From Gemmatimonadales bacterium (GTDB taxonomy: Bacteria > Gemmatimonadota > Gemmatimonadetes > Gemmatimonadales > GWC2-71-9): a stretch of 64,000 nucleotides of DNA. The notes under the pieces are model-generated. The model was not told where the DNA came from and made no database searches. It saw only the letters and a list, made by a program, of their open reading frames with translations. Below are positions 7,461 through 33,857 of the stretch, piece by piece. The DNA lies in contig DATIYM010000007.1 in the NCBI GenBank assembly GCA_035517615.1, positions 166,402 to 230,401 of the forward strand, read 5' to 3'. How positions within the stretch are numbered: the first letter of the stretch is position 1; each line of letters opens with the position of its first letter. The translations under genes were made by a program, and so were the position numbers.

Positions 7461-7521
7461 AGTGATCACAGGTTCACCTCGACGATTTTTCTTGTCGTTT
7501 CTTTCTTGACGCCTTTCGTTC

Positions 7522-7902
7522 TCACGCCGCCTTCTCTCTTGCGTTCCGCGCCGCCAGCGCCACCGCGTCCGCCGCATCGGCTCCCAGGACATCCCGCGCC
7601 GGCGCCACGAGCTGCGAGAGTACCACGACCGCGCACTCTCGAGTGGCGGGCTCGAGCTGGATCCGCGCCGCGTTGAGCGCCCGACGCAGCGGCGGGGGGA
7701 TCGTGAGCGTCGCCATCCGGCTGTCGAGCGCCTGCAGCCGCCGCCGGTGGTTGCGCGCGTCGAGTGGGGCCCTGCCAAGCACGCCCTCGGCCGCGCGAAC
7801 GACGAGCCAGAGCGCGAACAACCCATCGCGCTTCGGCCCCCGGGCCGCCGCGGTGATCAGCTCGATCAGGCGATCCTCGGCTGGCGTCGTCGCTTCGATC
7901 AT
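7522..7902 (-). CDS. hypothetical protein (126 aa)
   Basis: C-terminal part of track ORF 7522..8901, starting at MIEATTPAEDRL. The ATG forms an ATGA overlap with the stop of the GT9 gene. Alpha-helical composition with no recognisable motif. Confidence 0.55.
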   Translation of the reverse strand: MIEATTPAEDRLIELITAAARGPKRDGLFALWLVVRAAEGVLGRAPLDARNHRRRLQALDSRMATLTIPPPLRRALNAARIQLEPATRECAVVVLSQLVAPARDVLGADAADAVALAARNAREKAA

Positions 7903-8906
7903 GCGACCAGCCGTTCCACCGCTCGCGCCACCATCGCCGGCTCGAGATCCGTCATGCAGCGATGATGATCCAGCGGGCATGCGGCGGTGCCGCTCGCGGA
8001 GCACGGTCGGCAGCCGAGGTCGCATTGCAGCACGGCCGACGACGAGCGGTACGGGAAGAAGCCGAACCGTTCCACGGTTGGGCCAAACAGCGCCACTACC
8101 GGTGTGCCCACGCCCGTGGCCATGTGCATGACCCCCGTGTCGCCCGACACGAGGACACGGGCGCGCTCGATCAGCGCGCCCGTCTCCTGCAAGGAGAACT
8201 CGCCCGCGCTCGAATCGGGGGCGCCCGCGGCCGCGAGCTGCTGCGCGGCACCGCGATCGTCCGACCCGCCGACGATCACGGGCGTGAAGCCCGCCCGTCG
8301 CAGCTCCTCCGCCAGCGCGATCCAGTGCGCCACGGGCCAGCGTTTCGTTGCGTGGGCGGCGCCCGGTGCCAGCGCGGCGAGGGATCGGGTTTCGAGATCG
8401 CGTTCGGCGAGCCACTGGGCCACGCGGTCCCGCGCGCCGAGTGCCAGATGAAACTCGGGCGGCCCGCCATCCGGGTGCACGTCGAGATGCCGGGCAGCCT
8501 CGAAGTATCGCTCCGCCACGGGCTCGCGTGCGTGCGTGCCATACAGATCGACGCCGACGGAGATCAGGGTCGAGCGTGCCAGTTTGCGCTTGCCGTAGCC
8601 ACTCCAGCGGCATCGCACCAGCAGCCGCAGCACCGCGCTCCGCAGGCTGCCGTGCAAGTCGAGCCCGTGGGTGGGGGTGGGTCCCTGCGTCCGGACCCGG
8701 CGGGCAAACTCGCCCAGCGACTCGTTCGGCTCGAGCGCCAGCACCTGCGAGACGTGGGGATTCTCGGAGACGAGCGGCGCCATCCCTCGTTTCGTGACGT
8801 AGACCAGCCGGGCATTGGGATGCCGGTGCGCGATGGCGCGCAGGAGCGGCGTAGTGAGCAGGATGTCGCCGATGGAGCTGAACCGCACGAACAGGATACA
8901 CAACAC
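7899..8906 (-). CDS. glycosyltransferase family 9 (LPS heptosyltransferase-like)
   Basis: VLCILFVRFSSIGDILLTTPLLRAI N-terminus, KRWP motif, and GDTGVMHMATGVGTPVVALFGPT C-terminal motif. The track ORF extends to 9296, antisense into the response-regulator gene. The GTG at 8906 fits. Confidence 0.85.
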   Translation of the reverse strand: MLCILFVRFSSIGDILLTTPLLRAIAHRHPNARLVYVTKRGMAPLVSENPHVSQVLALEPNESLGEFARRVRTQGPTPTHGLDLHGSLRSAVLRLLVRCRWSGYGKRKLARSTLISVGVDLYGTHAREPVAERYFEAARHLDVHPDGGPPEFHLALGARDRVAQWLAERDLETRSLAALAPGAAHATKRWPVAHWIALAEELRRAGFTPVIVGGSDDRGAAQQLAAAGAPDSSAGEFSLQETGALIERARVLVSGDTGVMHMATGVGTPVVALFGPTVERFGFFPYRSSSAVLQCDLGCRPCSASGTAACPLDHHRCMTDLEPAMVARAVERLVA

Positions 8907-8963
8907 GCGGGCAATGTTAGCCTTGCGTTGCCCGGGTTCGCCAGTCGGAATTAGGTTACGGCG

Positions 8964-10544
8964 ATGCCTCGTCCCAAGAGCATACTCTGGGTCGATGATG
9001 AGATCGAGAGTCTCGTAGCCCACCGGCGATTCCTCGAAGAGCAAGGGTTTGCGATCGAGCAGGCCGCACACGGTGACGACGCGCTCGCGCTGTTGCGCCG
9101 CCAGCCGTACAGCGTCGTGCTGCTCGACGAGCAGATGCCCGGCCGCCGCGGACTCGAGCTGCTCGCCGAGATTCGCGCCATTGATCCGTCGATGCCGGTC
9201 GTGATGGTCACGAAGAGCGAAGACCAGGGCACCCTGCGCGAGGCGATCGGATTCGACGTCGCGGACTATCTCGTGAAGCCGGTGCACCCGCGGCAAGTCC
9301 TGTCAGTGGTGACCCGGCTGCTCGAGGGCGACCGGATCCGCCAGCAGCGGCTCGCACGCGATTTCGTGTCGCGCTTCCGCGAGCTCGAAGGCCGGCGCGG
9401 CGCGAACCTCGGCTGGCGCGAGTGGATCGAGCTCGTGGTCGAGTTGGTGCAATGGGATGTGCGGCTCGCCGCCGCGCAGGAGCCCGGCCTCTCCGAGGCG
9501 CTCCGCACGTTGCAGCACAGCCTCCGCAAGGACTTCGCGACCTACGTTGCCCGGAACTATCCCCGCTGGCTTGCGAATCCGGACGCCGATCGGCCGCCCT
9601 TGTCCGTGGACGTCGGCGCCGAGTTTCTCGTGCCCGCCTTCAAGACACGCGGGCGGATGCTGCTGCTCGTGATCGACTGCCTGCGGCTCGATCAATGGGA
9701 GGTGTTGCGAGAGCTCGTGTCGCCGCTGTTTGAAATCGAGGAGTCGCACTACTTCAGCATTCTACCCACGGCCACGCCGTTCGCCCGCAACGCAATTTTC
9801 AGCGGACTGTTTCCGCTGGAGCTGGCGGCGCGGCATCCCGCCTGGTGGGGCCAGGCGTCGGACGAGGCGAGTCTCAACGCGCACGAAGACGAGCTCCTGT
9901 CTGAGCAGCTGGCCGAGCTCGTCGGCCGACCGGTGCCGGTCCGCTACGAGAAGCTGTTCAGCTCCGTCGATGGGGCGGAGCTGCTGCGGCGGCTGCCCGC
10001 GCATCTCGCCCAGGAGGGCGTGACGGCGCTGGTGTTCAACTTCATCGACCAGCTCACCCACGGACGCTCGGAGAGCGCCATTCTATATGAAGTCGCGCGG
10101 GATGATGCCGCGCTGCGCAGTCTCACGCGCACCTGGTTCGAGCGCTCCCCGGTGCTCGCGGCGCTGCAGGAAGCCGAGCGCCGCGGCGTGTCCGTGCTGC
10201 TCACGACCGATCACGGGTCGATTCATTGCGCCACGCCGGCGACCGTGTTCGCGAAGCGCGATGCGAGCGCCAACCTCCGCTACAAATTCGGCGAAGACCT
10301 GCGCGTCGAGGACTCCGAAGCCGCGATCACCGTGTCCGATCCCCGGGCGTTCGGCCTGCCCCCCATGCCGCTCGGCGTACGACTCCTGATCGCGACCGCG
10401 GACCGATTCTTCGTGTATCCCACCAAGCTCAGGGAATACCAGGCGCGGTATCGCGGCTCGTTTCTGCACGGCGGCGCGACGCCGGAAGAAATGATCTTGC
10501 CGGTGGTGCTGCTGACACCCCGCGGCAGCGCCCGGGTGAGCTAG
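8964..10544 (+). CDS. PorX-like response regulator: CheY receiver + PglZ (alkaline-phosphatase superfamily) domain
   Basis: Receiver motifs ILWVDDE, VLLDEQMPG, VMVTKS and LVKP. PglZ-type motifs LLLVIDCLRLDQW, FNFIDQLTH and LLTTDHGS. 526 aa, similar in size and architecture to PorX. Confidence 0.85.
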   Translation: MPRPKSILWVDDEIESLVAHRRFLEEQGFAIEQAAHGDDALALLRRQPYSVVLLDEQMPGRRGLELLAEIRAIDPSMPVVMVTKSEDQGTLREAIGFDVADYLVKPVHPRQVLSVVTRLLEGDRIRQQRLARDFVSRFRELEGRRGANLGWREWIELVVELVQWDVRLAAAQEPGLSEALRTLQHSLRKDFATYVARNYPRWLANPDADRPPLSVDVGAEFLVPAFKTRGRMLLLVIDCLRLDQWEVLRELVSPLFEIEESHYFSILPTATPFARNAIFSGLFPLELAARHPAWWGQASDEASLNAHEDELLSEQLAELVGRPVPVRYEKLFSSVDGAELLRRLPAHLAQEGVTALVFNFIDQLTHGRSESAILYEVARDDAALRSLTRTWFERSPVLAALQEAERRGVSVLLTTDHGSIHCATPATVFAKRDASANLRYKFGEDLRVEDSEAAITVSDPRAFGLPPMPLGVRLLIATADRFFVYPTKLREYQARYRGSFLHGGATPEEMILPVVLLTPRGSARVS

Positions 10545-12356
10545 ATGGACAAGCCGCGGCGTGGGGCCAAGCTGCTCCGGTTGCTCCGTCCCTACACGCC
10601 CCTCTTCGTTCTCAACATCATCGCGACGCTGCTCGCGTCCGTCCTGGACGGCGCGACGTTCGTGCTCCTGATCCCGTTCCTGCGCGCGCTGTTCGGGCAG
10701 CAGGCGTTTCAGGGCGCGGGGTCGATGGTGGAACACGTCCTCGATTTCGCGGCGGGGCCGCTGATCGCGGGCGGCGGCTCGCCGCACGCGGCGCTGCGCA
10801 ATGTGGTGGTCGTGCTCGTCATCGCGCTGATCTTGAAGAACCTGCTGAGCTACGGCGCCGCCGTGGCCAGCGTGGCCATTCAGGAAGGGGTCGTGCGAGA
10901 CCTGCGCGTCCGGCTGTTCGATCACCTGCAGACCTTGCCACTCGGCTACTTCCAGCGGACCCGCGGGGGCCAGGTGCTGGCCCGGCTCGTGACCGATACG
11001 GATCAGGTCAAGAGCGCGATCACGGCGGCGCTCGCATCGCTGCTGCAGAACGTGAGCCTCATGCTCGTGTATGTCGCCATTCTCTTCAGCCTCTCCTGGC
11101 AGCTCACGCTCATCGCGCTCATCTCGGCGCCGCTGCTCGCGGCAATCGTCAAGCCGCTCATCGGCAAAGTACGGCGGCGCTCCCGTGATCTGGCCGAAGA
11201 ACGCGGCGAGCTGACGAGTCTCGTGAGTGAGATGGTGTCGTCCGTCAAGCTGGTGCGCGCGTACGTGGCCGAGTCGTTCGAGTCCGAGCGGTTTCGCCGT
11301 CTCGCGGATCGCTGCCGCAAGAGCGTGCTGCGCGCCCAGCGCTACGCGCTCGTCACGAGCCCGGTGAGCGAAGTGTTCGCCGGGATCGTCGTCCTCGTGA
11401 TTTTTTCGATCGGCACGGAGCTCGCCCTCGGCTCCCACGGGACGCTCAGGCCGGAAGTGCTGATCGCGTTCGTGGCCCTGGCGCTCCGGCTCATGTCGCC
11501 CGTCAAGTCGGTCGCGAATTATCCCACCGTCATGGCCGGCGCCCTCGCGGCCGCCGACCGCGTGTTCGATGTACTGGACCTCCCCGGTGGCGAAGGCGAT
11601 CGGCCCGACGAGAGCGACGCGCACTTCGAGCGCTCGATCGAATACCGCCTCGTGTCGTTCTCGTACAACGGTCAGGGAAGCGTGCTGGACGGCATCGAGA
11701 TGTGTGTCGATCGCGGGCAGATCGTCGCGGTGGTCGGACCCTCGGGCGCCGGGAAGACGACGCTGGTCGATCTGCTGCCACGGTTCTACGAGCCCACGGG
11801 CGGCTCCATTCTCATGGATGGCGTGCCGCTCACGAGGCTCAAGCGGCACAGCCTGCGCCGGCTCATGGGCATCGTTTCTCAGGAAACGATTCTCTTGAAC
11901 GACACCGCGTTTGCGAACATCGCCTACGGGCGCCGGGATTTCTCGCTCGAGCAAGTCGAGGCGGCCGCCCGGGCCGCGAACGCACACGAGTTCATCCGCC
12001 AGCTGCCGAACGGCTACGACACCCTGCTCGGTGAGCGGGGCACGCGGCTCTCGGGGGGCGAGCGGCAGCGGATCGCGATCGCGCGGGCGCTGCTCCGCGA
12101 TCCTCCGATTCTCATTCTCGACGAGGCGACGAGCGCGCTCGACACGGAATCGGAGCGGCTGGTACAGGAAGCCATCGATCGCCTGATGGAGCACCGCACC
12201 GTCCTCGTGATCGCCCACCGCCTGGCGACGGTGCGGCACGCGGACCTGATCGTGGTGCTCGCCGACGGCCGAATCGTCGAGCGGGGGACGCACGAGGCCC
12301 TGTTCGCGTCGGGCGGCCTGTACCGGCGCTTCTACGACATGCAATTCAAAGTGTGA
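10545..12356 (+). CDS. msbA: ABC transporter permease/ATPase, MsbA-like lipid/LPS exporter
   Basis: Six-TM N-terminal half, Walker A GPSGAGKTT, signature LSGGERQR and Walker B ILILDEATSALD. The start directly abuts the upstream stop (TAGATG). Confidence 0.85.
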   Translation: MDKPRRGAKLLRLLRPYTPLFVLNIIATLLASVLDGATFVLLIPFLRALFGQQAFQGAGSMVEHVLDFAAGPLIAGGGSPHAALRNVVVVLVIALILKNLLSYGAAVASVAIQEGVVRDLRVRLFDHLQTLPLGYFQRTRGGQVLARLVTDTDQVKSAITAALASLLQNVSLMLVYVAILFSLSWQLTLIALISAPLLAAIVKPLIGKVRRRSRDLAEERGELTSLVSEMVSSVKLVRAYVAESFESERFRRLADRCRKSVLRAQRYALVTSPVSEVFAGIVVLVIFSIGTELALGSHGTLRPEVLIAFVALALRLMSPVKSVANYPTVMAGALAAADRVFDVLDLPGGEGDRPDESDAHFERSIEYRLVSFSYNGQGSVLDGIEMCVDRGQIVAVVGPSGAGKTTLVDLLPRFYEPTGGSILMDGVPLTRLKRHSLRRLMGIVSQETILLNDTAFANIAYGRRDFSLEQVEAAARAANAHEFIRQLPNGYDTLLGERGTRLSGGERQRIAIARALLRDPPILILDEATSALDTESERLVQEAIDRLMEHRTVLVIAHRLATVRHADLIVVLADGRIVERGTHEALFASGGLYRRFYDMQFKV

Positions 12357-13228
12357 GCGTGCTCTCCGGGTTCACGATCGTGCGCAACGCCGTCACGCTC
12401 GACTACCCGATTGTTCCCGCCATCCGCTCGATTCTGCCGATCTGCTCCGAAGTTGTCGTGAATGTCGGGCGGTCGGATGACGGCACCCGCGAGCTCATCG
12501 CGGGGATCGGCGATTCGCGGATCCGGATCCTCGATACCGTATGGGATGAATCGAGCGGCGGCGCCACGCTCGCGCGCGAGACGAACCGCGCGATGGCCGC
12601 GTGCCGCGGCCGCTTTGGACTGTACATCCAGGCTGACGAAGTGCTGCACGAAACCGGCGCCGAGCTGCTCGCCGATCGCGTTCGCACCTGGGACCGAGAC
12701 GCTCTGCTCGAGGGCCTGCTCGTCGACTACCGTCACTTTTACGGCGATTTCCACACCCTGGCCACGAATCGCCACTGGTATCGCCGCGAAGTGCGCGTCG
12801 TGCGGCTGGGCTCGTCCGACATTCGCGCGTTTGGCGATGCGCAGGGGTTTCGCGTCGGGGAGGGCCTGCGCCGGGTCCGGGCCCGCGTGACCGGAGCGAT
12901 GATGTTTCATTACGGCTGGGCCCAGCCTCCGGCAGTGCTGCGCCAAAAACACGAAGCGTCCAAGGCGCTGTTCGGGGAGCATCAGGGGAAGCTCGAGCAG
13001 CGCGCGCAGGCTCCCGCGCTCGAGTGGACACCCGGATTGCGCCGCTTTACCGGCGCGCACCCCGCGGCCGCGGCCGCCTGGGTGGCTGACCGAAGTGGCG
13101 GGTCCAACGGACGCGCGCTCGGCCCCCGGCGGATCAGGCCCGGCGATATCCGGTTCTATCTCTCCGACTGGATCGAGCGGGCCACCGGCGTCCGGTTGTT
13201 CGAATACCGGAACTACGTGCTCGTATGA
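12353..13228 (+). CDS. glycosyltransferase family 2-like protein
   Basis: The N-terminus FTIVRNAVTLDYPIVPAIRSILPICSEVVVNVGRSDDGT is typical of a GT2 subgroup. The GTG start overlaps the msbA stop (GTGA). Confidence 0.75.
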   Translation: MSVLSGFTIVRNAVTLDYPIVPAIRSILPICSEVVVNVGRSDDGTRELIAGIGDSRIRILDTVWDESSGGATLARETNRAMAACRGRFGLYIQADEVLHETGAELLADRVRTWDRDALLEGLLVDYRHFYGDFHTLATNRHWYRREVRVVRLGSSDIRAFGDAQGFRVGEGLRRVRARVTGAMMFHYGWAQPPAVLRQKHEASKALFGEHQGKLEQRAQAPALEWTPGLRRFTGAHPAAAAAWVADRSGGSNGRALGPRRIRPGDIRFYLSDWIERATGVRLFEYRNYVLV

Positions 13229-13971
13229 CCGTGACCGCCGCCGCGCGTCCGCGCGCGCGGGAGCTGACGTCGCGAAACACGCATGCGGTCGTGGCGCGGC
13301 TGCTCGCTCGTGAGCCCGCGGCGAGGCGGGTGCTCGATATCCCCTGTGGAGAAGGCGCGTTCCTCGAGCGCGTGCGCGCGCTGGGTCGCGCGGCACATGG
13401 AGCGGACATCGTGAATCGCGCGGCGCTCGCACCCGCCGAGTTCACCGCCGCCGACATGAATGCCCCACTGCCGTTCGACGACGCCTCGTTCGATGCGCTG
13501 GTGTGCATCGACGGCATCGAGCACCTGGAACGACCCTTCGATTTCGTCCGGGAGTGTCGCCGGGTGCTGGCCGCGAACGGTGTGCTGATCGTTTCGACTC
13601 CCAACATCACCGCGCTCCGCTCCCGCTGGCGGTATCTGCTCACCGGATTTCACAACAAAGGCAAGGTGCCGCTCGATGAACGTGATCCCACGCCGTGGCA
13701 TCACGTGAACCTGTTGTCGTTCCCGGCGCTGCGATATCTGCTGCATCGGAACGGCTTTCGCGTGAGTCGCATCGCGACCAATCGCATCAAGCCGATCAGC
13801 TGGCTCTATCTGCCGCTGTGGCCGGTTTCGCTGCTCGCGACCAGCCTCTCCATGCGCCGCTGGGAATCCGATCCCGCACAGCGCGAGCGGAACAAGGAGA
13901 TTCTGCGGCAGATGCACACGTCGTGCATCGCGTTTGGGGAGACAATGATCGTGAAAGCAACGCGGGAGTGA
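13225..13971 (+). CDS. class I SAM-dependent methyltransferase
   Basis: Motif I VLDIPCGEGAF, motif II region FDALVCIDGIEHL, and GVLIVSTPN. ATGA overlap with the upstream gene. Confidence 0.85.
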   Translation: MTVTAAARPRARELTSRNTHAVVARLLAREPAARRVLDIPCGEGAFLERVRALGRAAHGADIVNRAALAPAEFTAADMNAPLPFDDASFDALVCIDGIEHLERPFDFVRECRRVLAANGVLIVSTPNITALRSRWRYLLTGFHNKGKVPLDERDPTPWHHVNLLSFPALRYLLHRNGFRVSRIATNRIKPISWLYLPLWPVSLLATSLSMRRWESDPAQRERNKEILRQMHTSCIAFGETMIVKATRE

Positions 13972-14915
13972 CGGCGTTTGACGGCCTCCGTGTCATCCTC
14001 GCGGCGGCGTTCAATACGCGCTACCACAGAAGCGGCCTCGCCCTCGCTTCGGCCCTCGAATCCCTCGGCTGCGAGGTGCGGCGCTGCGAGCTGCGCGAGC
14101 GAGGGCTCGCGCGGATACTTCGCAGGCCGCTGCCGCGGAGACTCGGCGCGATGCTGCGCCGGCCGGTCGACCTCGTGCTGGTCTTCAAGGGGAGCAACCT
14201 CTCCCGCGACGTCGTCGCCCAGCTTCGCCGGCAGTCCCGCGCGCGCTGGGCCTGCTGGTTTCCCGACGATCCGCACGAGATCGACGTCTCACTGAAAATC
14301 AGCCCCGCGTATGATTGGTTCTTCACGCATGACTCCTCGAGCCTCGACCGGCACCGCGGCTCGGGCGCCAAGGCGTACTATCTCGCGTTCGGTTGTGATC
14401 CCGCGTATCTCACGCCTCCCCTTCTGCCCAACGCGAACGGACACGCGCCGCTCGGGTTCGTCGGATCGCGCGACCCGATCCGGGAGCGCGCGCTTTCGGA
14501 CATTCGGGACCTGGGCCTCGAAACGTGGGGACCCGGCTGGCCCGCCGGCGCCGTCTATGGCAGGAAATTCGTGGCCGCGCTGGCGGGCGCGGTGGTGGGG
14601 ATCAACATGCACCAGCAATTCGGGAGTGCGGACCCCGATCGCTACGGCACGGGGGCGAACATGCGCGTGTTCGAGCTGGCGGCGGTCGGCACTCCGCAGC
14701 TGTGTGACGCCAAGGCCGACATTCGCCGGCACTTCACGCCCGACCGGGAAATCGTGCTGTATCGCAGCGTCGCTGAATTGCGGGAGCGGGCGCGGGCCCT
14801 GCTCGACGACGAATCGTTGCGTCGCTCGCTCGCGACACGTGCGCGCGAGCGTGCCCTGCGCGAGCATACCTGGGCGATTCGGCTCGCCGAGCTACTGGAC
14901 GTGAGCCTGCGCTGA
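13968..14915 (+). CDS. CgeB-like glycosyltransferase (DUF3880 / Glyco_trans_1_2-like)
   Basis: The C-terminal region NMRVFELAAVGTPQLCD...LYRSVAELRERARALLDDESLRRSLA is typical of the CgeB family. The GTG at 13968 forms GTGA with the upstream stop. The track ORF start at 13695 lies inside the methyltransferase gene. Confidence 0.7.
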   Translation: MTAFDGLRVILAAAFNTRYHRSGLALASALESLGCEVRRCELRERGLARILRRPLPRRLGAMLRRPVDLVLVFKGSNLSRDVVAQLRRQSRARWACWFPDDPHEIDVSLKISPAYDWFFTHDSSSLDRHRGSGAKAYYLAFGCDPAYLTPPLLPNANGHAPLGFVGSRDPIRERALSDIRDLGLETWGPGWPAGAVYGRKFVAALAGAVVGINMHQQFGSADPDRYGTGANMRVFELAAVGTPQLCDAKADIRRHFTPDREIVLYRSVAELRERARALLDDESLRRSLATRARERALREHTWAIRLAELLDVSLR

Positions 14916-15848
14916 GTAGTACGGGGTCGGCTGACCGGCGACGAGCGCGCCCGTGTCGAGCAGCGCGCGATACATCCGGACGTACGCCGCGGCCATCGCG
15001 AGGTGACTGAAGTACCGTGTGGCGTGCTCGCGGCAGACTGCTGAGCTGCGCGTGTGAATGGTCGCTGCGGCTCGGACCATGTCATCGAGGGTCGCGCACA
15101 GGGCGCCGACTTCGGGGGTGACGAGTTCCGGCAGCGACCCGCGATACGTGGTGAGCACGGGCGTACCGGAGAACAGGGCCTCGATCGTCGTCAAGCCAAA
15201 CTGCTCGTCCCAGAGCGCGGGCATCCAGAGACAGCGAGCGCCGGCCAGGAGCGCGATTTTTTTTTCCTGATCCACCTTCCCGAGAAACTTGATTCCAGGC
15301 CGAAAGGTGGGGCGCCAGCCTCCCACGAGCAGCAGACGGTGTCCCGCCCGCCGCGCGCCCTCGATCGCCCAGCGGTAGCCCTTGACTCGATGCAGCCGGC
15401 CGAGAAACAGGTCGTAATCGTCTTTGTCGTCGCGATAAAGAAAGTCGGCGGGATCGAGGCCGTTGTAGACGAACGTTTCACTGCCGTGCCGCCGCGCGTG
15501 GTTATGAGAAAGGAAGATGGCATACGGCGGCACCGGGGCTCCGGGCCGCATCTCGCCGTGCACGGTCCACACGCACGGCACCGACGGCGGACGCAGCAGC
15601 GGGAAGTGCGTGTGCAGGATATCGGCGTCCTCGGGCACCAGCGCACCGAGATCGGTAGCGGCGCTCGTCAACGTCTCGGCCGGCACCTCGACGACCGTTG
15701 CTGCGTCGAGCCGCGTGCCCGGGGCGGCGAGCAGCGTGACCCGGTGTCCCTGCGCCGCGAGGCCGCGCGCCAGCGCGACCACCACGCGCTCCGTCCCGCC
15801 GTAGCGCCGTACCGGAAGCCGGTAATGCGATGCGAGTACCACGTGCAT
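14892..15848 (-). CDS. glycosyltransferase family 4 (GT-B), tandem paralog 1
   Basis: YGGTERVVVALARGLAAQGHRVTLL N-terminus and EQFGLTTIEALFSGTPVL (E-x7-E-type) motif. 318 aa. Confidence 0.85.
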   Translation of the reverse strand: MHVVLASHYRLPVRRYGGTERVVVALARGLAAQGHRVTLLAAPGTRLDAATVVEVPAETLTSAATDLGALVPEDADILHTHFPLLRPPSVPCVWTVHGEMRPGAPVPPYAIFLSHNHARRHGSETFVYNGLDPADFLYRDDKDDYDLFLGRLHRVKGYRWAIEGARRAGHRLLLVGGWRPTFRPGIKFLGKVDQEKKIALLAGARCLWMPALWDEQFGLTTIEALFSGTPVLTTYRGSLPELVTPEVGALCATLDDMVRAAATIHTRSSAVCREHATRYFSHLAMAAAYVRMYRALLDTGALVAGQPTPYYSAQAHVQ

Positions 15849-15851
15849 GGG

Positions 15852-16814
15852 TCAGTCGCCTGCCGCGGACCGGCCGGCGGGCAGGTCGCCGTGCGCCAGG
15901 AGATGCCGGTACATCCGCACGTATTCCGCCGCCATGACGAGGTGGGTGAAGTGGCGTTCGGCATGCGCACGACACTGGGCGGGCTCGCGCGTGTGAATTG
16001 ATTCCGCTGCGGCGATCATCTCGTCCATGGTATCGCACAGCGCGCCAACGTCGGGCGTGATCAGCTCCGGAAGAGCCCCGCGGCGTGTGCCGAGCACGGG
16101 GGTTCCCGAGAGCAACGCTTCGATGGTGACCAGACCAAACGGCTCGTCCCACTCGGCGGGATTCCACAGGCAGCGCGCGCGGGCGAGCAGTGCGGCCTTG
16201 GTCCAGCCGTCCACCTCTCCCACGTACTTGACCGATCCGGTGAAACTCGGCCGCCAGCCGCCGGCCACGATGAGACGGTGACCGGTCCGCTTGGCGGCTT
16301 CGATGGCCCAGTGGTAGCCCTTGGCCCGGTGCAACTTGCCGAGAAACAGGTCGTACTGCTCCGGCCGCTTGGGAAACCGGCGCGCGAAGTATTCCGCGGG
16401 ATCGAGTCCGTTGTAGACGAACACCTCGCTGCCGTGCCGGCGCGCATGGTCGCGCGAGAGGAAGATCGTGTTCGGAAACAACGCCGCCCCCGACTTCAGG
16501 TTGCGGTGAATTGTCTGCACGAACGGCAGGGCGTCGAACCCGCGCGCCAGCGCGAAATGCGCGTGGACGATATCGCTCCCGGCGGGGACGTATGGGACGA
16601 GCCGGCGCGGCTCGTCGAATTCGCGTGCGGGAACCTCGACCACCGCGGCTTCCGGGACGCGCGTCGGGCCGGGAGCGAGCACGGTGACGCGATGTCCCAG
16701 GGCCGCGAGCCCACGAACCAGCGCCACCACGACCCGTTGCGGTCCGCCGTAGCCTTTGGCCGGAAGCGGTTGCTGCGACGCGACGACGACGCTGAGCGAG
16801 GCGGCCGCGCTCAC
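15852..16814 (-). CDS. glycosyltransferase family 4 (GT-B), tandem paralog 2
   Basis: YGGPQRVVVALVRGLAALGHRVTVL and EPFGLVTIEALLSGTPVL, collinear with the neighbour along the whole length. The GTG at 16814 makes GTGA with the deacetylase stop. The track start at 17015 is inside the deacetylase gene. Confidence 0.85.
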   Translation of the reverse strand: MSAAASLSVVVASQQPLPAKGYGGPQRVVVALVRGLAALGHRVTVLAPGPTRVPEAAVVEVPAREFDEPRRLVPYVPAGSDIVHAHFALARGFDALPFVQTIHRNLKSGAALFPNTIFLSRDHARRHGSEVFVYNGLDPAEYFARRFPKRPEQYDLFLGKLHRAKGYHWAIEAAKRTGHRLIVAGGWRPSFTGSVKYVGEVDGWTKAALLARARCLWNPAEWDEPFGLVTIEALLSGTPVLGTRRGALPELITPDVGALCDTMDEMIAAAESIHTREPAQCRAHAERHFTHLVMAAEYVRMYRHLLAHGDLPAGRSAAGD

Positions 16815-17542
16815 ACGTAGTGCAGCCAGCGGAGCCGCATCAGCGTCCAGCGCAGCCGCGAGATCGTCATGCGATAGTCGATCGAAATCCGGGTGAGGCG
16901 AAAGGGATCCGTCCGCACGGAGTTCATCCGGCGCCGGGCGATCACGCCGGCCTGGAATCCCGCGTCGCGCGCCAGCGCCCGCACGGTGGCATTCTGCTTT
17001 CCGTAGGGATAGCACAGCACGCTGACAGGCAAGCCAAGCAGCCGTTCGAGCTCGGCGCGCGACGTGCGAAGGTCAGCGAGCACCCGTTCGGGTGCAAGCG
17101 TCGTCAATGCGGGATGCGTGTGCGAGTGCGACTCGAATTGGATTCCCGCGTCACGCATCGTCGTGATCTCCGATGCCGCGAGCAGCGGCTCCGCGGCGGT
17201 TCCCGGGTTGTCCCATGCGTTCGTTTTCCCGATCAAGCTCGAAATCAGGAACACGGTCGCGCTGAACCCGAACTGACGCAGCAGCGGCCAGGCGTGCTCC
17301 CACACCGAACGGTAGCCATCATCGAACGTAAGAATGATCGGGCGCGCCGGAATGGGATGCCCGTGCTCCCGGTACTCGAGCCATTCCGTAAATGAAATCG
17401 TCTGATATCCGAGACTCGCAACCAGCTCGAGCTGCGCGCCGAAATCGCCGGGTGGGACGTAATTCCGGGGCGAGCGCGCCCCCGGGGGCATCCGATCCAC
17501 GGCATGATACATCAGGATGGGAAGCCTGATCCGGGGTCTCAC
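16811..17542 (-). CDS. polysaccharide deacetylase (NodB/CE4 family)
   Basis: LMYHAV, LTFDDGY, and the HSHTHP histidine motif. The GTG at 17542 makes GTGA with the upstream GT2 stop. Confidence 0.88.
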   Translation of the reverse strand: MRPRIRLPILMYHAVDRMPPGARSPRNYVPPGDFGAQLELVASLGYQTISFTEWLEYREHGHPIPARPIILTFDDGYRSVWEHAWPLLRQFGFSATVFLISSLIGKTNAWDNPGTAAEPLLAASEITTMRDAGIQFESHSHTHPALTTLAPERVLADLRTSRAELERLLGLPVSVLCYPYGKQNATVRALARDAGFQAGVIARRRMNSVRTDPFRLTRISIDYRMTISRLRWTLMRLRWLHYV

Positions 17543-18297
17543 GCCGCCGCGGGCTTTTCCGAGAGGTCCCACAGGTAGGCGTACTTGAGAAATGCCGAAT
17601 ACGCCGACAGCGCCGACGTGACAAAGCCGAAGCGCCCATCGAGAAAGCTGCCCGAGAGAGCGTACTCACGGACGAAGCGCCAGCCGGGGCGGGCAACGAG
17701 GTCGAGCAGCGTCGCACGCCTCCCTCGGGCGTGCAGATCTTCCGCGCCCCAGCGCGCATAGGCGGCGATCTTCTGGAGGTGGTGGGTCAAGTCGCGATAC
17801 GGGATGTGGCGAATCGTGCCCTCGAGCGTGCCGGGGTTCGCGACCGGCTCGAGCCGCTCGTGAACTCGATCCTCCACGAAGCGGCGGGTGCGGGGGAAGA
17901 GCCGGACGTGCCAGTCGCGTGCCCAGCGCCCGCGGCGCCGTTCCCGGCCGAGGTAAATGTTCTCGAACCGGACCTGATATGCGGCGTGCGCGGGAGCGGC
18001 GAGCACCCGGGCGATCTCCTCGCGCAGGGCGTCGCTGGCCCGTTCGTCGGCGTCGAGCGCCAGCACCCACTCGTTTCGCGCCGCGGCGATCGCGGCGTTG
18101 CGCTGCGCGGCGATCGTCCGGTCCGGCACACGGAGCACCGTGGCGCCGTGTGTCTTCGCGATCTCGACCGTGGCGTCGGTCGACCCTCCGTCCGCGACGA
18201 TGACCTCGTCCACCCAGAAGAGCGCGTCGAGCGCCGCGCCGATCTGGGCTGCTTCATTGAGCGTCGGTATCACGACCGTGAGCGGCAGTGGTGCCAT
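17539..18297 (-). CDS. glycosyltransferase family 2 (LPS core type)
   Basis: LTVVIPTLNEA, VIVADGGSTD, and the DADE (DxD) motif. 252 aa. Confidence 0.88.
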   Translation of the reverse strand: MAPLPLTVVIPTLNEAAQIGAALDALFWVDEVIVADGGSTDATVEIAKTHGATVLRVPDRTIAAQRNAAIAAARNEWVLALDADERASDALREEIARVLAAPAHAAYQVRFENIYLGRERRRGRWARDWHVRLFPRTRRFVEDRVHERLEPVANPGTLEGTIRHIPYRDLTHHLQKIAAYARWGAEDLHARGRRATLLDLVARPGWRFVREYALSGSFLDGRFGFVTSALSAYSAFLKYAYLWDLSEKPAAA

Positions 18298-18350
18298 GGC
18301 GTCGATGCTCCTGATAAGGCCGGTGAGCGGCGCGACGACTATTATATAGC

Positions 18351-19574
18351 GTGCCCCTTCCCGTCGAGCGCGTCCGGCTGCTCATCGCGCACGACTTCCC
18401 GCCGCTGGGTGGCGGCATCGCCCGGCTGCACGGCGAGCTGGCGCGGCGCTTCGCGCCCGGCGAGCTGATTGTTTCGACCCCGCAGGATCCCGACGCATCC
18501 GAAGTCGATCCTCACTTCCCGGGTCCCATCGATCGCCTGCCCGTTTCCCGCCGGCGCTCGAAAAGCTTGCCGGGGCTCCTGCTCTGGTCGCGGCGAGCGT
18601 CGAAGCTCGCCCGCGAGCACCACGCGCGTTTCGTGTATTGCGGGAACATCAAGCCCGCGGGGTATCCCACCCGCTGGGTGCACGAGCGCACCGGCATTCC
18701 CTACGCGGTGTTTCTCTTCGGTGCCGACCTGTTGAGCGAACAGCACAAGTATCACCACTCGGCGTTCAAGCGCCGCTCGGGCCGGGCGATTCTCGGAGGC
18801 GCGACCGCCCTCATCGCGATCAGCAACTGGACGCGTGACCAGGCGCTCACCGTGCTCGGTGAGCTGGGACTCGACGGGCATGGACAAAGGCTGCGGGTGC
18901 TGCACCTCGGCACCGATCCGCTTCGGTTTCGCCCGAATGGCGACAGCGCCAAAGCCCGCGAACGGTTCCATCTGCCCGCCGGGCGCCGCTGGCTCATCAC
19001 AGTGGCGCGGCTTGAGCCGCACAAGGGCGTCGACACGGTCATCAAGGCGCTGCCCTCCATCATGGAGCGGGCCCCCGACGTCGGATATCTGGTGGTCGGC
19101 AGCGGGCCCGCGAAGGAACGGCTCGAGAAGCTGGCGCAGAAGACGGGCGTCGCCGACCGCGTGCGACTGCTCGGCGAAGTGACCGACGACGACCTGCCTC
19201 TCGCCTACAATCTCGCGACCGCGTACGTCGGCGTCTCGCGCCGGGCCGACATGATCGGCGTGGAGGGGTTCGGGATTTCGTTCGTCGAAGCTTCGGCGTC
19301 GGGATTGCCGATCGTGGCGGGGAATTCAGGCGGCGTGCCCGATGCGGTACGCGACGGCGAGACCGGTTTCCTGGTGGAGCCCGAAGATCCGGCCGCCGTC
19401 GCCGAGCGCGTGACGGAGCTGCTCGCCAACCCGAACCTTGCGCGCACGATCGGCCAGGCGGGCCGGCGCGCGGTCGAGACCTACTACAACTGGGACAGAG
19501 TGATGAAGGACCTGCGGGCCATCGAGGCCGAGGTGATCGATCCGGTCAGCTCGCGGCTCCTCGAGCGCGCGTAA
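18351..19574 (+). CDS. glycosyltransferase family 4 (GT-B)
   Basis: GGIARLHGELARRF N-terminus, VARLEPHKGVD, and EGFGISFVEASASGLPIVAGNSGG motif. Confidence 0.88.
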   Translation: MPLPVERVRLLIAHDFPPLGGGIARLHGELARRFAPGELIVSTPQDPDASEVDPHFPGPIDRLPVSRRRSKSLPGLLLWSRRASKLAREHHARFVYCGNIKPAGYPTRWVHERTGIPYAVFLFGADLLSEQHKYHHSAFKRRSGRAILGGATALIAISNWTRDQALTVLGELGLDGHGQRLRVLHLGTDPLRFRPNGDSAKARERFHLPAGRRWLITVARLEPHKGVDTVIKALPSIMERAPDVGYLVVGSGPAKERLEKLAQKTGVADRVRLLGEVTDDDLPLAYNLATAYVGVSRRADMIGVEGFGISFVEASASGLPIVAGNSGGVPDAVRDGETGFLVEPEDPAAVAERVTELLANPNLARTIGQAGRRAVETYYNWDRVMKDLRAIEAEVIDPVSSRLLERA

Positions 19575-32114: not shown

Positions 32115-33857
32115 TCAGAACCGATGGTCGAGGCGCAGCGTGACGCGAACCGGCTCGCCCGACGTCACGGCCTTCGCGACATAGATCCCGAACCCACCCC
32201 AGTCGATTCCGAACCCCAGGTCGCCGATCCAGCTCCCGAGTGTCGGCAGCTTGTCGCTTGGGATGTGTCCGGGTCCGTGCCCCACGAGCCAGCCCTGCCC
32301 GGCGTCCCCGAGGACCACGAAATCCGGACCCGCGAGCGAGGCGAAGATCGATTTCGAGCCTTCATCCTCCGGGTGTGAGGCCCCGTACGCCCAGTGCAGC
32401 GATAGATGGCCGCGATACTCGACCTGGGTCAGGATCACGCGATCGCACGCCGCCACCCGCGTGTGCGCAAACGCCGAATCAACGATGTCGGCGCTGCACG
32501 ACGTGGCGCGGAAGCCGTAACCCGGAAGCGGATCGGGTCCGCCCATCGAGAGCCGCTGCTGCAGCGGCAACGGATCACCGCCCAGCCAGCCACCCGCGAG
32601 AAATCGCAGGTTGACGCGCCCCGACATGCTCACACGCGTGTAGCGCCGCACGTCGAACATCATGCGGCTGAATGCGTACGAGCCGTCGATGGGAATGGCG
32701 CGCCGCACCGACGCTGGGAGGGTCTGTGGCGACACGTCGTCGCTCCAGCTCTGCGACACCTCGGCATGCACCAGCCAGCCGGAGGTGGGCTGATCGTGAT
32801 CGTTGCGGGTGTCGAACGTCACGCTGCCAAGCAGCGTCGTATAGTGCCCCTGATCAATCGGGGGATTGGGCCGCCAGGGCACCGTATTGCGGAACACGGT
32901 CCACGGGTCGCGGGCCGGCACGCTTGTCTGCCATTCGCGCGACAGGTCGAGCGACAGGCCCAGCGGCCGCGTGGGCTGCGCGAAGAGCCGCCCGCCGATC
33001 CCGCGATTCATGTAGTAGTCGCGGTAATCGCGCTGGAACAGGAAGCTGGCCCACCCGACTTCATCGTCGTGGAGGCCCCACCGCTCGACCGGTGAGACCA
33101 CGCTATATCCGTTCAATCCGACACCGACGCCGGACCGGGCCCCGGTCCGGAGCTCGGTCCGAACGATGTAGCCCAGGTTCCCTGGTTCCCCGCCCACGTC
33201 GCCCACGGTGCGCGCGACCCCGAGGGCGTCGAGACGCAGCCGCATGTCGCCGTTCACGCCCCAGTCGAACTGCGGCCCCAGCACGATCGGGAGGCCTTCC
33301 ACGCGATTGAACGTCCCGCCCGTCGCGATCGTCAGCGTGGAACGCGACTCGGCGTTCTGCCAGCTCTTGTGAGCGCCGAAGAACGGCAGGTGGCGGCGAA
33401 ACGAGCGATCGAGCGCGATTTCCTCGCCGTTCGTGGTATACGCCAGCAGATCCCTGTAATGCCGCACTTGCCCGCCGACGCGGGCGCCGGGCGCCTGCAC
33501 GAGGCTCCCGCCGATGACCGTGAGATCGCCGGACACCTGGGCCGACGAATCGAGCGTCGCATCGCCGTTGATCACGAGCAGACTTCCCTGCACGCGACCC
33601 GCGAGCGTGACCGAGCCGTTGCGGATGGCCACATCGCCGCGCCATTCATTGCCCCGCGGCAGCGAGGTGCGGCCCACGAGCCGCGTGGTGCTGGGCGCAT
33701 TGAAAAGACGGATGGCTTCTTCGGCGGTCGCTTCGGCAAGCCCCGTGGTGGCGGTCGCGGCGAAGCTGTCCGGGTTGATGACGATCGCCGTATCCTGCGC
33801 GCGCGCCACGGCGGGCACGAGCGCGAGCAGCAGCAACGCGGGCGCACGCATGGTCAT
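32115..33857 (-). CDS. outer-membrane protein: N-terminal bactofilin-like beta-helix repeats + C-terminal Omp85/surface-antigen-like beta-barrel
   Basis: The ATG at 33857 (MTMRAPALLLLALVPAVARAQ signal peptide) makes ATGA with the regulator stop. GDVAIRNGSVTLAGRVQGSLLVINGDATLDSSAQVSGDLTVIGGSL are polymer-forming-cytoskeletal-type repeats. The long beta-rich C-terminus ends in RLDHRF (terminal Phe). Confidence 0.75.
   Translation of the reverse strand: MTMRAPALLLLALVPAVARAQDTAIVINPDSFAATATTGLAEATAEEAIRLFNAPSTTRLVGRTSLPRGNEWRGDVAIRNGSVTLAGRVQGSLLVINGDATLDSSAQVSGDLTVIGGSLVQAPGARVGGQVRHYRDLLAYTTNGEEIALDRSFRRHLPFFGAHKSWQNAESRSTLTIATGGTFNRVEGLPIVLGPQFDWGVNGDMRLRLDALGVARTVGDVGGEPGNLGYIVRTELRTGARSGVGVGLNGYSVVSPVERWGLHDDEVGWASFLFQRDYRDYYMNRGIGGRLFAQPTRPLGLSLDLSREWQTSVPARDPWTVFRNTVPWRPNPPIDQGHYTTLLGSVTFDTRNDHDQPTSGWLVHAEVSQSWSDDVSPQTLPASVRRAIPIDGSYAFSRMMFDVRRYTRVSMSGRVNLRFLAGGWLGGDPLPLQQRLSMGGPDPLPGYGFRATSCSADIVDSAFAHTRVAACDRVILTQVEYRGHLSLHWAYGASHPEDEGSKSIFASLAGPDFVVLGDAGQGWLVGHGPGHIPSDKLPTLGSWIGDLGFGIDWGGFGIYVAKAVTSGEPVRVTLRLDHRF

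What the first reader, a model, noticed from the sequence alone, without database searches (positions are those of the whole stretch)
8964..10544. Orphan PorX-like response regulator (receiver + PglZ) embedded in the LPS/outer-membrane glycan locus
A CheY receiver with all phospho-acceptor positions (DDE, D in LLDEQMP, T, K) is fused to a PglZ/alkaline-phosphatase-fold domain (VIDCLRLDQW, TTDHGS). This is the PorX architecture known from type IX secretion regulation in Bacteroidota. Here it has no adjacent kinase. It is divergent from a GT9 heptosyltransferase (57-nt intergenic, 8907-8963) and abuts an MsbA-like exporter (TAGATG), followed by 8 glycan-modifying genes. That placement suggests enzymatic or regulatory control of lipid A-core or surface glycan export rather than T9SS, which has not been described.
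Basis: partly seen in the sequence, partly recalled or inferred. Interest (0 to 1): 0.6.

Follow-up and report, generated by a model that had tools for sequence, protein, structure and literature searches.

The report
PorX regulator heading an LPS-export operon

Summary
ORF 8964-10544 (+) encodes a 526-aa receiver + PglZ protein. It passes NCBI's PorX equivalog model (528.6 bits, cut-off 300) and aligns end to end with the solved PorX structures. All phospho-acceptor and zinc-site residues are intact.

The genome is Gemmatimonadales. It has one PorX, an SprA translocon homologue, two PorV/PorQ-family proteins and one protein with a T9SS C-terminal sorting domain. PorK/L/M/N were not detected, but those negatives are weak.

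The gene order GT9 <- | -> porX -> MsbA-like ABC is conserved. The porX stop and the ABC start are a median of 1 nt apart across class Gemmatimonadetes. In the other classes of the phylum, porX still sits among GT9 or other glycosyltransferase genes. No PorX locus from another FCB phylum has this arrangement.

Across 121 genomes of the phylum:
- 113 have PorX and 97 have SprA.
- Seven genomes lack both. One lacks only PorX, probably because of a contig break.
- In the six PorX-less loci that could be read, the ABC gene remains and porX is cleanly absent.
- 17 genomes keep PorX without a detectable SprA. In one such genus its dN/dS is 0.06.

So this is an orthodox PorX in an undescribed, conserved LPS context. 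It is tied to secretion by its loss pattern, and the exporter does not need it.

The parts
7899..8906 (-). GT9 LPS-core heptosyltransferase-like gene, divergent from porX
   Evidence: Pfam PF01075, E 8.8e-29. TIGR02195 heptosyltransferase II 129 bits, just under its cut-off of 134.6, aligned 4-334 to 2-338 of the model. The divergent GT9/porX pairing is kept in most Gemmatimonadales loci and in families f10 and f12 of the other classes.
8907..8963 (.). 57-nt divergent spacer with a conserved promoter-like motif: TTGCCC (8928-8933), 18 nt, TAGGTT (8952-8957), ending 6 nt before the porX ATG
   Evidence: Sequence read. The motif block CGTTGCC...CGCCAG...TAG.TT is conserved in 11 close relatives. 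The consensus promoter scan did not call it. The promoter reading and a leaderless porX mRNA are inference only.
8964..10544 (+). porX: receiver (7-116), helical linker, PglZ/alkaline-phosphatase-fold domain (about 226-520)
   Evidence: NF052313 T9SS_RR_PorX 528.6 bits against a cut-off of 300, over the full length. PDB 8TED/8P6F E about 6e-114 and 7PV7 E 1e-109, end to end. D11, D12, D55, T83, K105, D238, T271, D362, H366, D416, H417 and H502 are invariant in 83 PorX sequences. Single copy in the genome.
10545..12356 (+). MsbA-like ABC half-transporter (TMD+NBD); its start abuts the porX stop (TAGATG)
   Evidence: ABC_membrane + ABC_tran. Best NCBIfam model is TIGR02203 MsbA_lipidA at 514.7 bits (cut-off 602), then the HepA family at 508. 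The best half-transporter hits in the PDB are MsbA, about 348 bits. Two paralogues elsewhere in the genome score similarly on the MsbA model.
12353..13228 (+). Conserved 291-aa protein of unknown family; overlaps the ABC stop by 4 nt
   Evidence: No Pfam, NCBIfam or PDB match. An orthologue (47-67% identity) is present in most Gemmatimonadales loci.
13225..13971 (+). SAM-dependent methyltransferase
   Evidence: Methyltransf_23/11/25.
13695..14915 (+). CgeB-like glycosyltransferase (Glyco_trans_1_2). The true start is probably near the methyltransferase stop, not 13695.
   Evidence: PF13524, E 1e-28, at residues 264-402.
14892..19574 (.). Rest of the glycan block: GT4 (14892-15848, -), GT4 (15852-17015, -), CE4 deacetylase (16811-17572, -), GT2 (17539-18297, -), GT4 (18351-19574, +)
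   Evidence: Pfam scans.

Best explanation
The gene encodes the Gemmatimonadota orthologue of PorX. PorX is a response regulator without a DNA-binding domain. Its receiver is phosphorylated on an aspartate (D55 here), and its PglZ domain is a two-zinc phosphodiesterase (nucleophile T271; metal ligands D238, D362/H366, D416/H417, H502).

Shown here:
- family membership, with all catalytic and phospho-acceptor residues invariant;
- vertical inheritance within the phylum;
- porX is the first gene of a conserved, translationally coupled operon with an MsbA-like lipid exporter, inside an LPS-core/surface-glycan locus;
- the genome has at least the outer-membrane part of a type IX-like system (SprA, PorV/PorQ family, one CTD protein);
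- PorX is missing almost only from genomes where SprA was also not found;
- the exporter persists without PorX.

Inferred: PorX keeps the mechanism described for P. gingivalis and F. johnsoniae. In that mechanism, an unlinked kinase phosphorylates the receiver, zinc and phosphorylation drive dimerisation, and the protein cleaves oligonucleotide signals and/or docks on a partner. Its main role is in SprA-type secretion and surface assembly. The operon link to the exporter and the core glycosyltransferases would then co-express the secretion signalling protein with the LPS supply, which in known T9SS is the anchor for secreted proteins. PorX is not a required subunit of the exporter.
For: Identity:
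- NF052313 528.6 bits against a cut-off of 300.
- Full-length alignments to 8TED, 8P6F and 7PV7.
- Residues equivalent to Pg D58, T272 and D361/H365 (PMC9757075) are present and invariant in 60 Gemmatimonadota and 23 other FCB PorX.
- Gemmatimonadota PorX form one clade, SH-aLRT 100.

T9SS parts in this genome:
- SprA, 2037 aa, 495.8 bits on TIGR04189, E 7e-26 to 6H3I.
- PorV_fam 151.9 and 115.9 bits against a cut-off of 90.
- A Por_Secre_tail domain on a 1311-aa protein immediately upstream of a PorV-family gene.

Phyletic pattern in 121 genomes:
- PorX+SprA+ 96, PorX+SprA- 17, PorX-SprA+ 1, PorX-SprA- 7. Fisher p = 3.8e-5, not corrected for phylogeny.
- The joint absences fall in at least four genera of three families.
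- The single PorX-SprA+ genome has its ABC gene 296 nt from a contig end.

The exporter is independent of PorX: in six of the seven PorX-/SprA- genomes the ABC orthologue (47-55% identity; paralogues 35-39%) and YebC/DnaB_C/GT9 remain, with no porX remnant. The seventh (G099) has only split ABC fragments and was not fetched.

Operon: the gap between the porX stop and the ABC start has a median of 1 nt, and about 40 of 54 loci fall within -8 to +6 nt. The scan found no terminator-like site in 7500-15500.

Literature: PorX is reported as restricted to the FCB group and present even in species with only a core subset of T9SS parts (PMC9757075). T9SS cargo is anchored on A-LPS (PMC8545088).
Against: - PorK, PorL, PorM and PorN were not found, so a complete, canonical T9SS is not shown.
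- Only one CTD-bearing protein was detectable.
- 17 of 121 genomes, including three closed or nearly closed genomes of one genus, keep PorX with no detectable SprA. PorX there has dN/dS of about 0.06 and all catalytic residues. This points to a function that does not need SprA.
- The phylum-wide placement beside LPS-core genes fits a direct LPS role as well as it fits mere co-expression.
- No expression, interaction or enzymatic data exist for any Gemmatimonadota PorX.
Confidence: 0.55

Rival explanations
1. In Gemmatimonadota, PorX has been rewired to the envelope-lipid pathway. Phospho-PorX, or the oligonucleotide signal it destroys, directly controls the co-translated MsbA-like flippase or the core glycosyltransferases. 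Its link to type IX secretion is secondary or absent.
For: - porX->ABC is translationally coupled across the class.
- porX is flanked by GT9 or other GT genes in the other classes.
- No such linkage exists in 27 PorX loci from other FCB phyla.
- PorX (113/121) is more widespread than SprA (97/121).
- PorX is kept under purifying selection (dN/dS 0.06) in a genus whose closed genomes have no detectable SprA.
- PorK/L/M/N were not detected, so the known PorX partner PorL may be missing.
Against: - The ABC orthologue and its neighbours persist after clean loss of porX in at least four lineages, so the exporter works without it.
- Every well-supported PorX absence coincides with SprA absence.
- The genome does carry SprA, PorV-family proteins and a CTD protein.
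- The ABC is not uniquely MsbA. Two paralogues score equally on the MsbA model, and none reaches the equivalog cut-off.
Confidence: 0.2
2. Historical accident. PorX is purely a secretion regulator. Its position at the head of the msbA-like operon is inherited gene order with no functional meaning beyond sharing a promoter. PorX lingers in SprA-less genomes because deleting the first gene of an operon that carries an important exporter is hazardous.
For: - Unrelated housekeeping neighbours (YebC, DnaB_C-like) are conserved in the same block, which shows general synteny inertia in this order.
- The arrangement is confined to one phylum.
- The ABC gene survives porX deletion.
Against: - The pairing with LPS-core genes survives between classes, where PorX identity is only 48-55% and the YebC/DnaB_C neighbours are gone.
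- The 0-4 nt coupling is maintained rather than drifting.
- dN/dS of 0.06 in SprA-less genomes means the protein itself is under selection, not just its DNA as an operon leader.
Confidence: 0.2

Closest known systems
PorX of Porphyromonas gingivalis (PGN_1019; PDB 7PV7/7PVA/7PVK), response regulator of the PorXY-SigP cascade
   Same: Same three-part architecture and length (526 against about 518 aa). Full-length alignment, E 1e-109. The residues equivalent to D58, T272 and D361/H365 are identical. Orphan gene with no adjacent kinase. FCB-group organism with a Sov/SprA homologue.
   Different: About 40% identity. Here it is the first gene of an operon with an MsbA-like exporter in an LPS-core locus. 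PorL, PorM, PorK and PorN, the partners or regulon members in P. gingivalis, were not detected. PorY and SigP counterparts were not identified.
PorX of Flavobacterium johnsoniae (PDB 8TED, 8TEF, 8P6F)
   Same: Best PDB match (E about 6e-114, residues 7-520 aligned to 9-520). The PTAT nucleophile motif and all metal ligands are conserved.
   Different: In F. johnsoniae the receiver is proposed to act on the GldL motor (PMC10951265, abstract seen). No GldL-like gene was found here.
BREX PglZ proteins (BREX-3 and BREX-2 types)
   Same: Shared PglZ/alkaline-phosphatase-fold domain. NF033449 gives 81 bits over residues 151-515.
   Different: Far below the BREX cut-offs (250 and 200 bits). BREX PglZ has no receiver domain. 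No BREX genes lie nearby. This gene is not a defence system.
MsbA lipid A-core flippase (E. coli and Salmonella; PDB 3B5W, 5TV4, 6BPL), for the downstream gene
   Same: TMD+NBD half-transporter. MsbA is its best NCBIfam model and its best half-transporter match in the PDB. It sits next to a heptosyltransferase and core-type GTs.
   Different: Below the MsbA equivalog cut-off (514.7 against 602). The HepA-family glycolipid exporter model scores almost the same (508). Two paralogues in the genome score 492 and 517 on the MsbA model.
T9SS-LPS coupling in P. gingivalis (A-LPS anchoring by PorU/PorZ; porR and porS as LPS genes; LpxE activity dependent on T9SS)
   Same: A documented functional link between type IX secretion and LPS (PMC8545088 and PMC12704123). 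It gives a rationale for co-expressing PorX with LPS genes.
   Different: That link is biochemical and acts at the cell surface. No genetic linkage of porX to msbA or core GT genes is described there.

Membership tests
PorX (NCBIfam NF052313, T9SS response regulator signal transducer) | Whole-protein score above the curated equivalog cut-off, with full-length coverage | tested here: met
   528.6 bits against a cut-off of 300; residues 6-520 aligned to model positions 2-513 of 513.
PorX | N-terminal CheY-like receiver with acidic pocket, phospho-acceptor Asp (Pg D58), and conserved Thr and Lys | tested here: met
   D11, D12, D55, T83 and K105 are present and invariant in 83 sequences.
PorX | C-terminal PglZ domain with Thr nucleophile (Pg T272) and zinc ligands (Pg D361/H365 and partners) | tested here: met
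   T271, D362/H366, D238, D416/H417 and H502 are present and invariant.
PorX | Helical bundle between receiver and PglZ; total length 500-530 aa; no DNA-binding domain | tested here: met
   526 aa. Residues 117-230 align to 8TED and 7PV7 with at most single-residue gaps. No other Pfam domain. The fold itself was not modelled.
PorX | Occurs in FCB-group bacteria together with core T9SS parts (Sov/SprA, PorV) | tested here: met
   Gemmatimonadales. SprA and two PorV/PorQ-family genes are in the same genome. 96 of 113 PorX-positive genomes of the phylum have SprA.
PorX | Phosphotransfer from PorY; binding to SigP and PorL/GldL; zinc-dependent phosphodiesterase activity on oligonucleotides | not testable with these tools
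   Needs biochemistry. No PorY, SigP or PorL counterpart could be named from sequence here.
Complete type IX secretion system (for the genome) | SprA/Sov translocon | tested here: met
   C32:3497-9610, 2037 aa, 495.8 bits summed against a cut-off of 200; E 7e-26 to PDB 6H3I.
Complete type IX secretion system (for the genome) | PorV shuttle / PorQ | tested here: met
   PorV_fam subfamily model: 151.9 bits (C13:115097-116224) and 115.9 bits (C62:7964-8965), cut-off 90. The PorV and PorQ equivalog models are not reached.
Complete type IX secretion system (for the genome) | PorK/PorN ring and PorL/PorM motor | tested here: inconclusive
   GldM (TIGR03517, PF12081): no hit. GldK (TIGR03525): only a generic 292-aa FGE-sulfatase-domain protein with no KLMN context. 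A membrane-topology screen for an L/M-like gene pair found nothing. The same models also failed in a Bacteroidota, an Ignavibacteria and Latescibacterota genomes that carry PorX, so the negatives are weak.
Complete type IX secretion system (for the genome) | Cargo with C-terminal sorting domains; PorU sortase | tested here: inconclusive
   One Por_Secre_tail hit (23.7 bits, cut-off 23) on a 1311-aa protein just upstream of a PorV-family gene. jackhmmer finds no further copies. No PorU model or PDB hit.
MsbA (TIGR02203), for the downstream ABC gene | Score above the equivalog cut-off, and the only such gene in the genome | tested here: not met
   514.7 bits against a cut-off of 602. Paralogues at C57 (517) and C7:108762 (492) score alike. 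The context and the ranking of PDB hits still make it the best MsbA candidate.
BREX phage-defence PglZ | PglZ protein of at least 600 aa within a brx/pgl gene set | tested here: not met
   81 bits against a cut-off of 250. 526 aa with a receiver domain. The neighbours are LPS and glycan genes.

The most novel reading that the evidence does not exclude
In Gemmatimonadota, PorX has a role that does not need the SprA translocon. It would be a phosphorylation-gated, oligonucleotide-cleaving regulator of lipid A-core or surface-glycan export, acting on or with the MsbA-like flippase with which it is co-translated. Type IX secretion would then be one of two outputs of an ancestral envelope-assembly signalling protein. 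This reading would explain three observations: PorX is more widespread than SprA in the phylum; it stays under strong purifying selection in closed genomes with no detectable SprA; and it sits at the head of LPS-core gene clusters in all classes sampled.
Probability: 0.2. Interest if true: 0.75.

Novelty: new variant of a known kind. Interest (0 to 1): 0.5.

Why it matters
PorX has been studied only in Bacteroidota, and what its phosphodiesterase domain does in the cell is still unclear.

A phylum in which porX is fixed to an LPS-export and core-glycan operon offers a natural experiment on how secretion signalling and outer-membrane lipid supply are coordinated. In this phylum PorX is almost never missing unless SprA is also undetected, yet it is sometimes kept without SprA.

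The question can be tested in cultured Gemmatimonas strains with ordinary genetics (deletion, D55A and T271A alleles), LPS profiling and secretome analysis.

The result also warns against reading 'PorX present' as 'canonical T9SS present' in genome annotation outside Bacteroidota.

Tried and rejected
- **GldM models.** TIGR03517 and PF12081 gave no hit in the own genome. TIGR03517 also gave none in 11 other PorX-carrying genomes, including a Bacteroidota MAG. These negatives are treated as uninformative.
- **GldK model.** TIGR03525 found only generic FGE-sulfatase-domain proteins, here and in the outgroups.
- **Latescibacterota GldK-like hit.** I followed it as a possible seed for K/L/M/N queries. 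The downstream ORFs I first chose were spurious frames of a high-GC genome, and the real neighbours are unrelated. Lead dropped.
- **Topology screen.** A whole-proteome search for a gldL/gldM-like gene pair returned only unrelated genes, such as a PfkB kinase and BatA-like proteins.
- **More CTD cargo.** jackhmmer from the single CTD found nothing else.
- **PorU candidate.** A PDB search of the 1311-aa protein gave no hit.
- **Conserved unknown 12353-13228.** A PDB search gave only noise.
- **Promoter and terminator scan of 7500-15500.** Nothing was called.
- **BREX/defence reading of the PglZ domain.** Rejected: scores are far below the cut-offs and the context is wrong.
- **Naming the ABC gene as MsbA from its HMM score alone.** Rejected, because two paralogues score the same.
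Full report
**1. The observation**

The ORF at 8964-10544 (+) is open and encodes 526 aa. Pfam finds a receiver domain (7-116, E 6.3e-25) and a PglZ domain (231-424, E 1.9e-16).

The upstream gene 7899-8906 (-) is a GT9 heptosyltransferase-like gene that starts with GTG at 8906. The porX stop and the start of a 603-aa ABC exporter form TAGATG at 10542-10547.

Downstream lie a conserved unknown, a methyltransferase, a CgeB-like GT, two GT4, a CE4 deacetylase, a GT2 and a GT4. No kinase is adjacent.

**2. What the protein is**

It is a PorX orthologue, not merely PorX-like.
- It scores 528.6 bits on NCBI's PorX equivalog model (cut-off 300) over the whole length.
- It aligns end to end with the crystal structures of F. 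johnsoniae PorX (8TED/8P6F, E about 6e-114) and P. gingivalis PorX (7PV7, E 1e-109).
- The residues shown experimentally to matter in P. gingivalis PorX are D58 (phospho-acceptor), T272 (nucleophile) and D361/H365 (zinc) (PMC9757075). They correspond here to D55, T271 and D362/H366.
- Together with D11, D12, T83, K105, D238, D416, H417 and H502, these residues are invariant in 60 Gemmatimonadota and 23 other FCB PorX sequences.
- The genome has a single copy.
- Gemmatimonadota PorX form one clade apart from Bacteroidota, Ignavibacteria, Latescibacterota and KSB1 sequences (SH-aLRT 100). This indicates vertical descent.
- A public near-identical protein is annotated only as 'bifunctional response regulator/alkaline phosphatase family protein'.

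**3. The organism and its secretion genes**

Relatives identify the genome as Gemmatimonadales. It is 3.12 Mb and 98.8% complete.

It encodes:
- an SprA homologue of 2037 aa (495.8 bits summed on TIGR04189; E 7e-26 to PDB 6H3I);
- two PorV/PorQ-family outer-membrane proteins above the subfamily cut-off;
- one 1311-aa protein with a T9SS C-terminal sorting domain. It lies directly upstream of one PorV-family gene and is followed by GWxTD-domain proteins.

I could not find PorK, PorL, PorM or PorN. The same models also found nothing in PorX-bearing Bacteroidota, Ignavibacteria and Latescibacterota genomes, so these negatives carry little weight.

A BLAST-level survey reported a similar subset (Sov, PorU, PorV, PorQ, PorX and others, without PorKLMN) for the incertae sedis class of Bacteroidetes (PMC7323717). 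A review lists Gemmatimonadetes among FCB phyla that may have T9SS (PMC11285876).

**4. Synteny**

I compared the window's proteins by tblastn with 80 PorX loci.
- In about 50 Gemmatimonadales loci (PorX identity 57-83%) the order is YebC <- DnaB_C-like <- GT9 <- | -> porX -> ABC -> glycan genes.
- None of 27 PorX loci from other phyla has an ABC exporter or a GT9 gene within 10 kb.

Twenty further loci were fetched by coordinate.
- porX->ABC is kept in six families of the class (f1, f2, f6-f9).
- In the other classes porX is flanked by two GT9 genes (f10), lies between GT9 and an ABC gene 2.5 kb downstream (f12), or heads GT4/GT2 genes (f11).
- The gap between the porX stop and the ABC start has a median of 1 nt. 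About 40 of 54 loci fall within -8 to +6 nt.

The linkage to LPS-core-type genes is therefore phylum-wide, and the translational coupling to the exporter is class-wide.

**5. Is the exporter MsbA?**

Its best family model is MsbA_lipidA (514.7 bits, below the cut-off of 602), closely followed by the HepA glycolipid-exporter family. Its best half-transporter matches in the PDB are MsbA structures.

Two paralogues elsewhere in the genome score 492 and 517 on the same model. One of them resembles ABCB10/ABCB8 more closely.

Context makes the window gene the best MsbA candidate, but 'MsbA-like' is as far as the data go.

**6. Phyletic test**

I searched an even sample of 121 Gemmatimonadota genomes for PorX and SprA.

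| | SprA+ | SprA- |
|---|---|---|
| PorX+ | 96 | 17 |
| PorX- | 1 | 7 |

- 113 genomes have PorX and 97 have SprA. Fisher p = 3.8e-5, uncorrected for phylogeny.
- The seven joint absences fall in at least four genera of three families.
- In the one PorX-SprA+ genome, the ABC gene begins 296 nt from a contig end. PorX was probably cut off by the assembly.
- PorX loss is therefore nested within SprA loss.
- I fetched the ABC locus of six of the seven genomes lacking both. The ABC orthologue (47-55% identity; paralogues 35-39%) and YebC/DnaB_C/GT9 are still there, porX is absent, and no remnant is detectable. In the seventh (G099) only split ABC fragments were found, and it was not fetched.
- In two family-f1 genomes, GT9 and the ABC gene now face each other directly.

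The exporter does not need PorX, and PorX appears to become dispensable only when SprA is gone.

**7. The counter-current**

Seventeen genomes have PorX and no detectable SprA.
- Three of them are closed or nearly closed genomes of one genus.
- There the porX->ABC pair is intact and all catalytic residues are present.
- PorX dN/dS within that genus is 0.06. It is 0.04-0.05 in family f1 loci close to the window (whose SprA status was not checked) and 0.18 in an SprA-positive pair of family f7.

There are two possibilities. SprA may be too divergent there to be found, although the same model detects it in a sister genus of the family. Or PorX may have a function that does not require SprA.

**8. 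Reading**

The best-supported account is an orthodox PorX: a receiver-gated zinc phosphodiesterase and adaptor whose indispensable role is tied to SprA-type secretion.
- It is transcribed from a promoter in the 57-nt spacer. A conserved TTGCCC-N18-TAGGTT motif ends 6 nt before the ATG. The promoter function is inferred only.
- It is transcribed as the first gene of an operon with an MsbA-like exporter and core-glycan genes.
- In known T9SS, secreted proteins are anchored on LPS, and even lipid A remodelling depends on the T9SS (PMC8545088, PMC12704123). Co-expression of the signalling protein with the LPS supply is therefore a reasonable purpose for the link.

Each is contradicted in part by the data in sections 6 and 7.

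**9. Known or new**

The protein family, its fold and its chemistry are known.

The library searches found no paper that describes porX linked to msbA or LPS-core genes, or T9SS in Gemmatimonadota in any detail.

Earlier unchecked AI notes from this same scan report the porX-msbA pairing in at least seven other Gemmatimonadota genomes, and one describes this same locus. My synteny results agree with them.

This report adds:
- the SprA, PorV and CTD inventory for this genome;
- the nested loss pattern of PorX within SprA loss;
- the clean-deletion loci that keep the exporter;
- the purifying selection on PorX in an SprA-less genus.

**10. Limits**

- Genes were called with a simple GC3-based caller, so exact starts are approximate.
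- The phyletic test is not corrected for phylogeny.
- Absence calls rest on a filtered search.

Noticed in passing
own genome C13:107553-119397 (locus L099 3554-15398), outside the window: Candidate surface-assembly cluster. It holds a 1193-aa TonB-dependent-receptor-like protein (CarboxypepD_reg + Plug), a 1311-aa protein with no recognisable domain except a T9SS C-terminal sorting domain, a PorV/PorQ-family protein, two GWxTD-domain proteins and a 370-aa unknown. The 1311-aa protein sits where PorU sits in Bacteroidota, but it matches no PorU model or PDB chain. No paper in the library mentions GWxTD.
   Followed up: partly
own genome C62:6914-8965 (locus L100 1915-3966), outside the window: The second PorV/PorQ-family gene is followed, 39 nt downstream on the same strand, by a receiver-GGDEF diguanylate cyclase. 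This may be relevant because P. gingivalis PorX was crystallised with pGpG, the linear breakdown product of c-di-GMP, bound in its active site.
   Followed up: no
window 8928-8957: A promoter-like motif, TTGCCC-N18-TAGGTT, is conserved in 11 close relatives and ends 6 nt before the porX ATG. It would give a leaderless or nearly leaderless porX mRNA. The consensus promoter scan did not call it.
   Followed up: partly
window 14892-17015 (-): Two adjacent GT4 glycosyltransferase genes that cross-hit each other in every relative (tandem paralogues). Their copy number varies between relatives.
   Followed up: no
window 32115-36444 (-): A separate two-component module: a histidine kinase (35233-36444) and a sigma-54 NtrC-type regulator (33854-35236), followed by a 640-aa protein with an Omp85-superfamily domain. 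It is about 23 kb from porX, and nothing links it to porX.
   Followed up: no
window 37260-39173 (+) and 52294-54114 (-): A 637-aa protein with only an N-terminal NYN nuclease domain, and a 606-aa fusion of RDD and SpoIIM domains. Both are uncharacterised architectures.
   Followed up: no
loci L130-L132 (family f10 of another class of the phylum): In three genomes porX lies 14-20 kb from sprA on the same contig. Between them are GT9, EngB, Lon, an Mla-type lipid-transport ABC set, an anti-sigma/STAS/PP2C module and an NtrC-type regulator.
   Followed up: partly
own genome C7:108762-110519 and C57:1707-3737, outside the window: Two further full-length MsbA-like ABC half-transporters. The C57 copy resembles mitochondrial ABCB10/ABCB8 more than MsbA.
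   Followed up: partly
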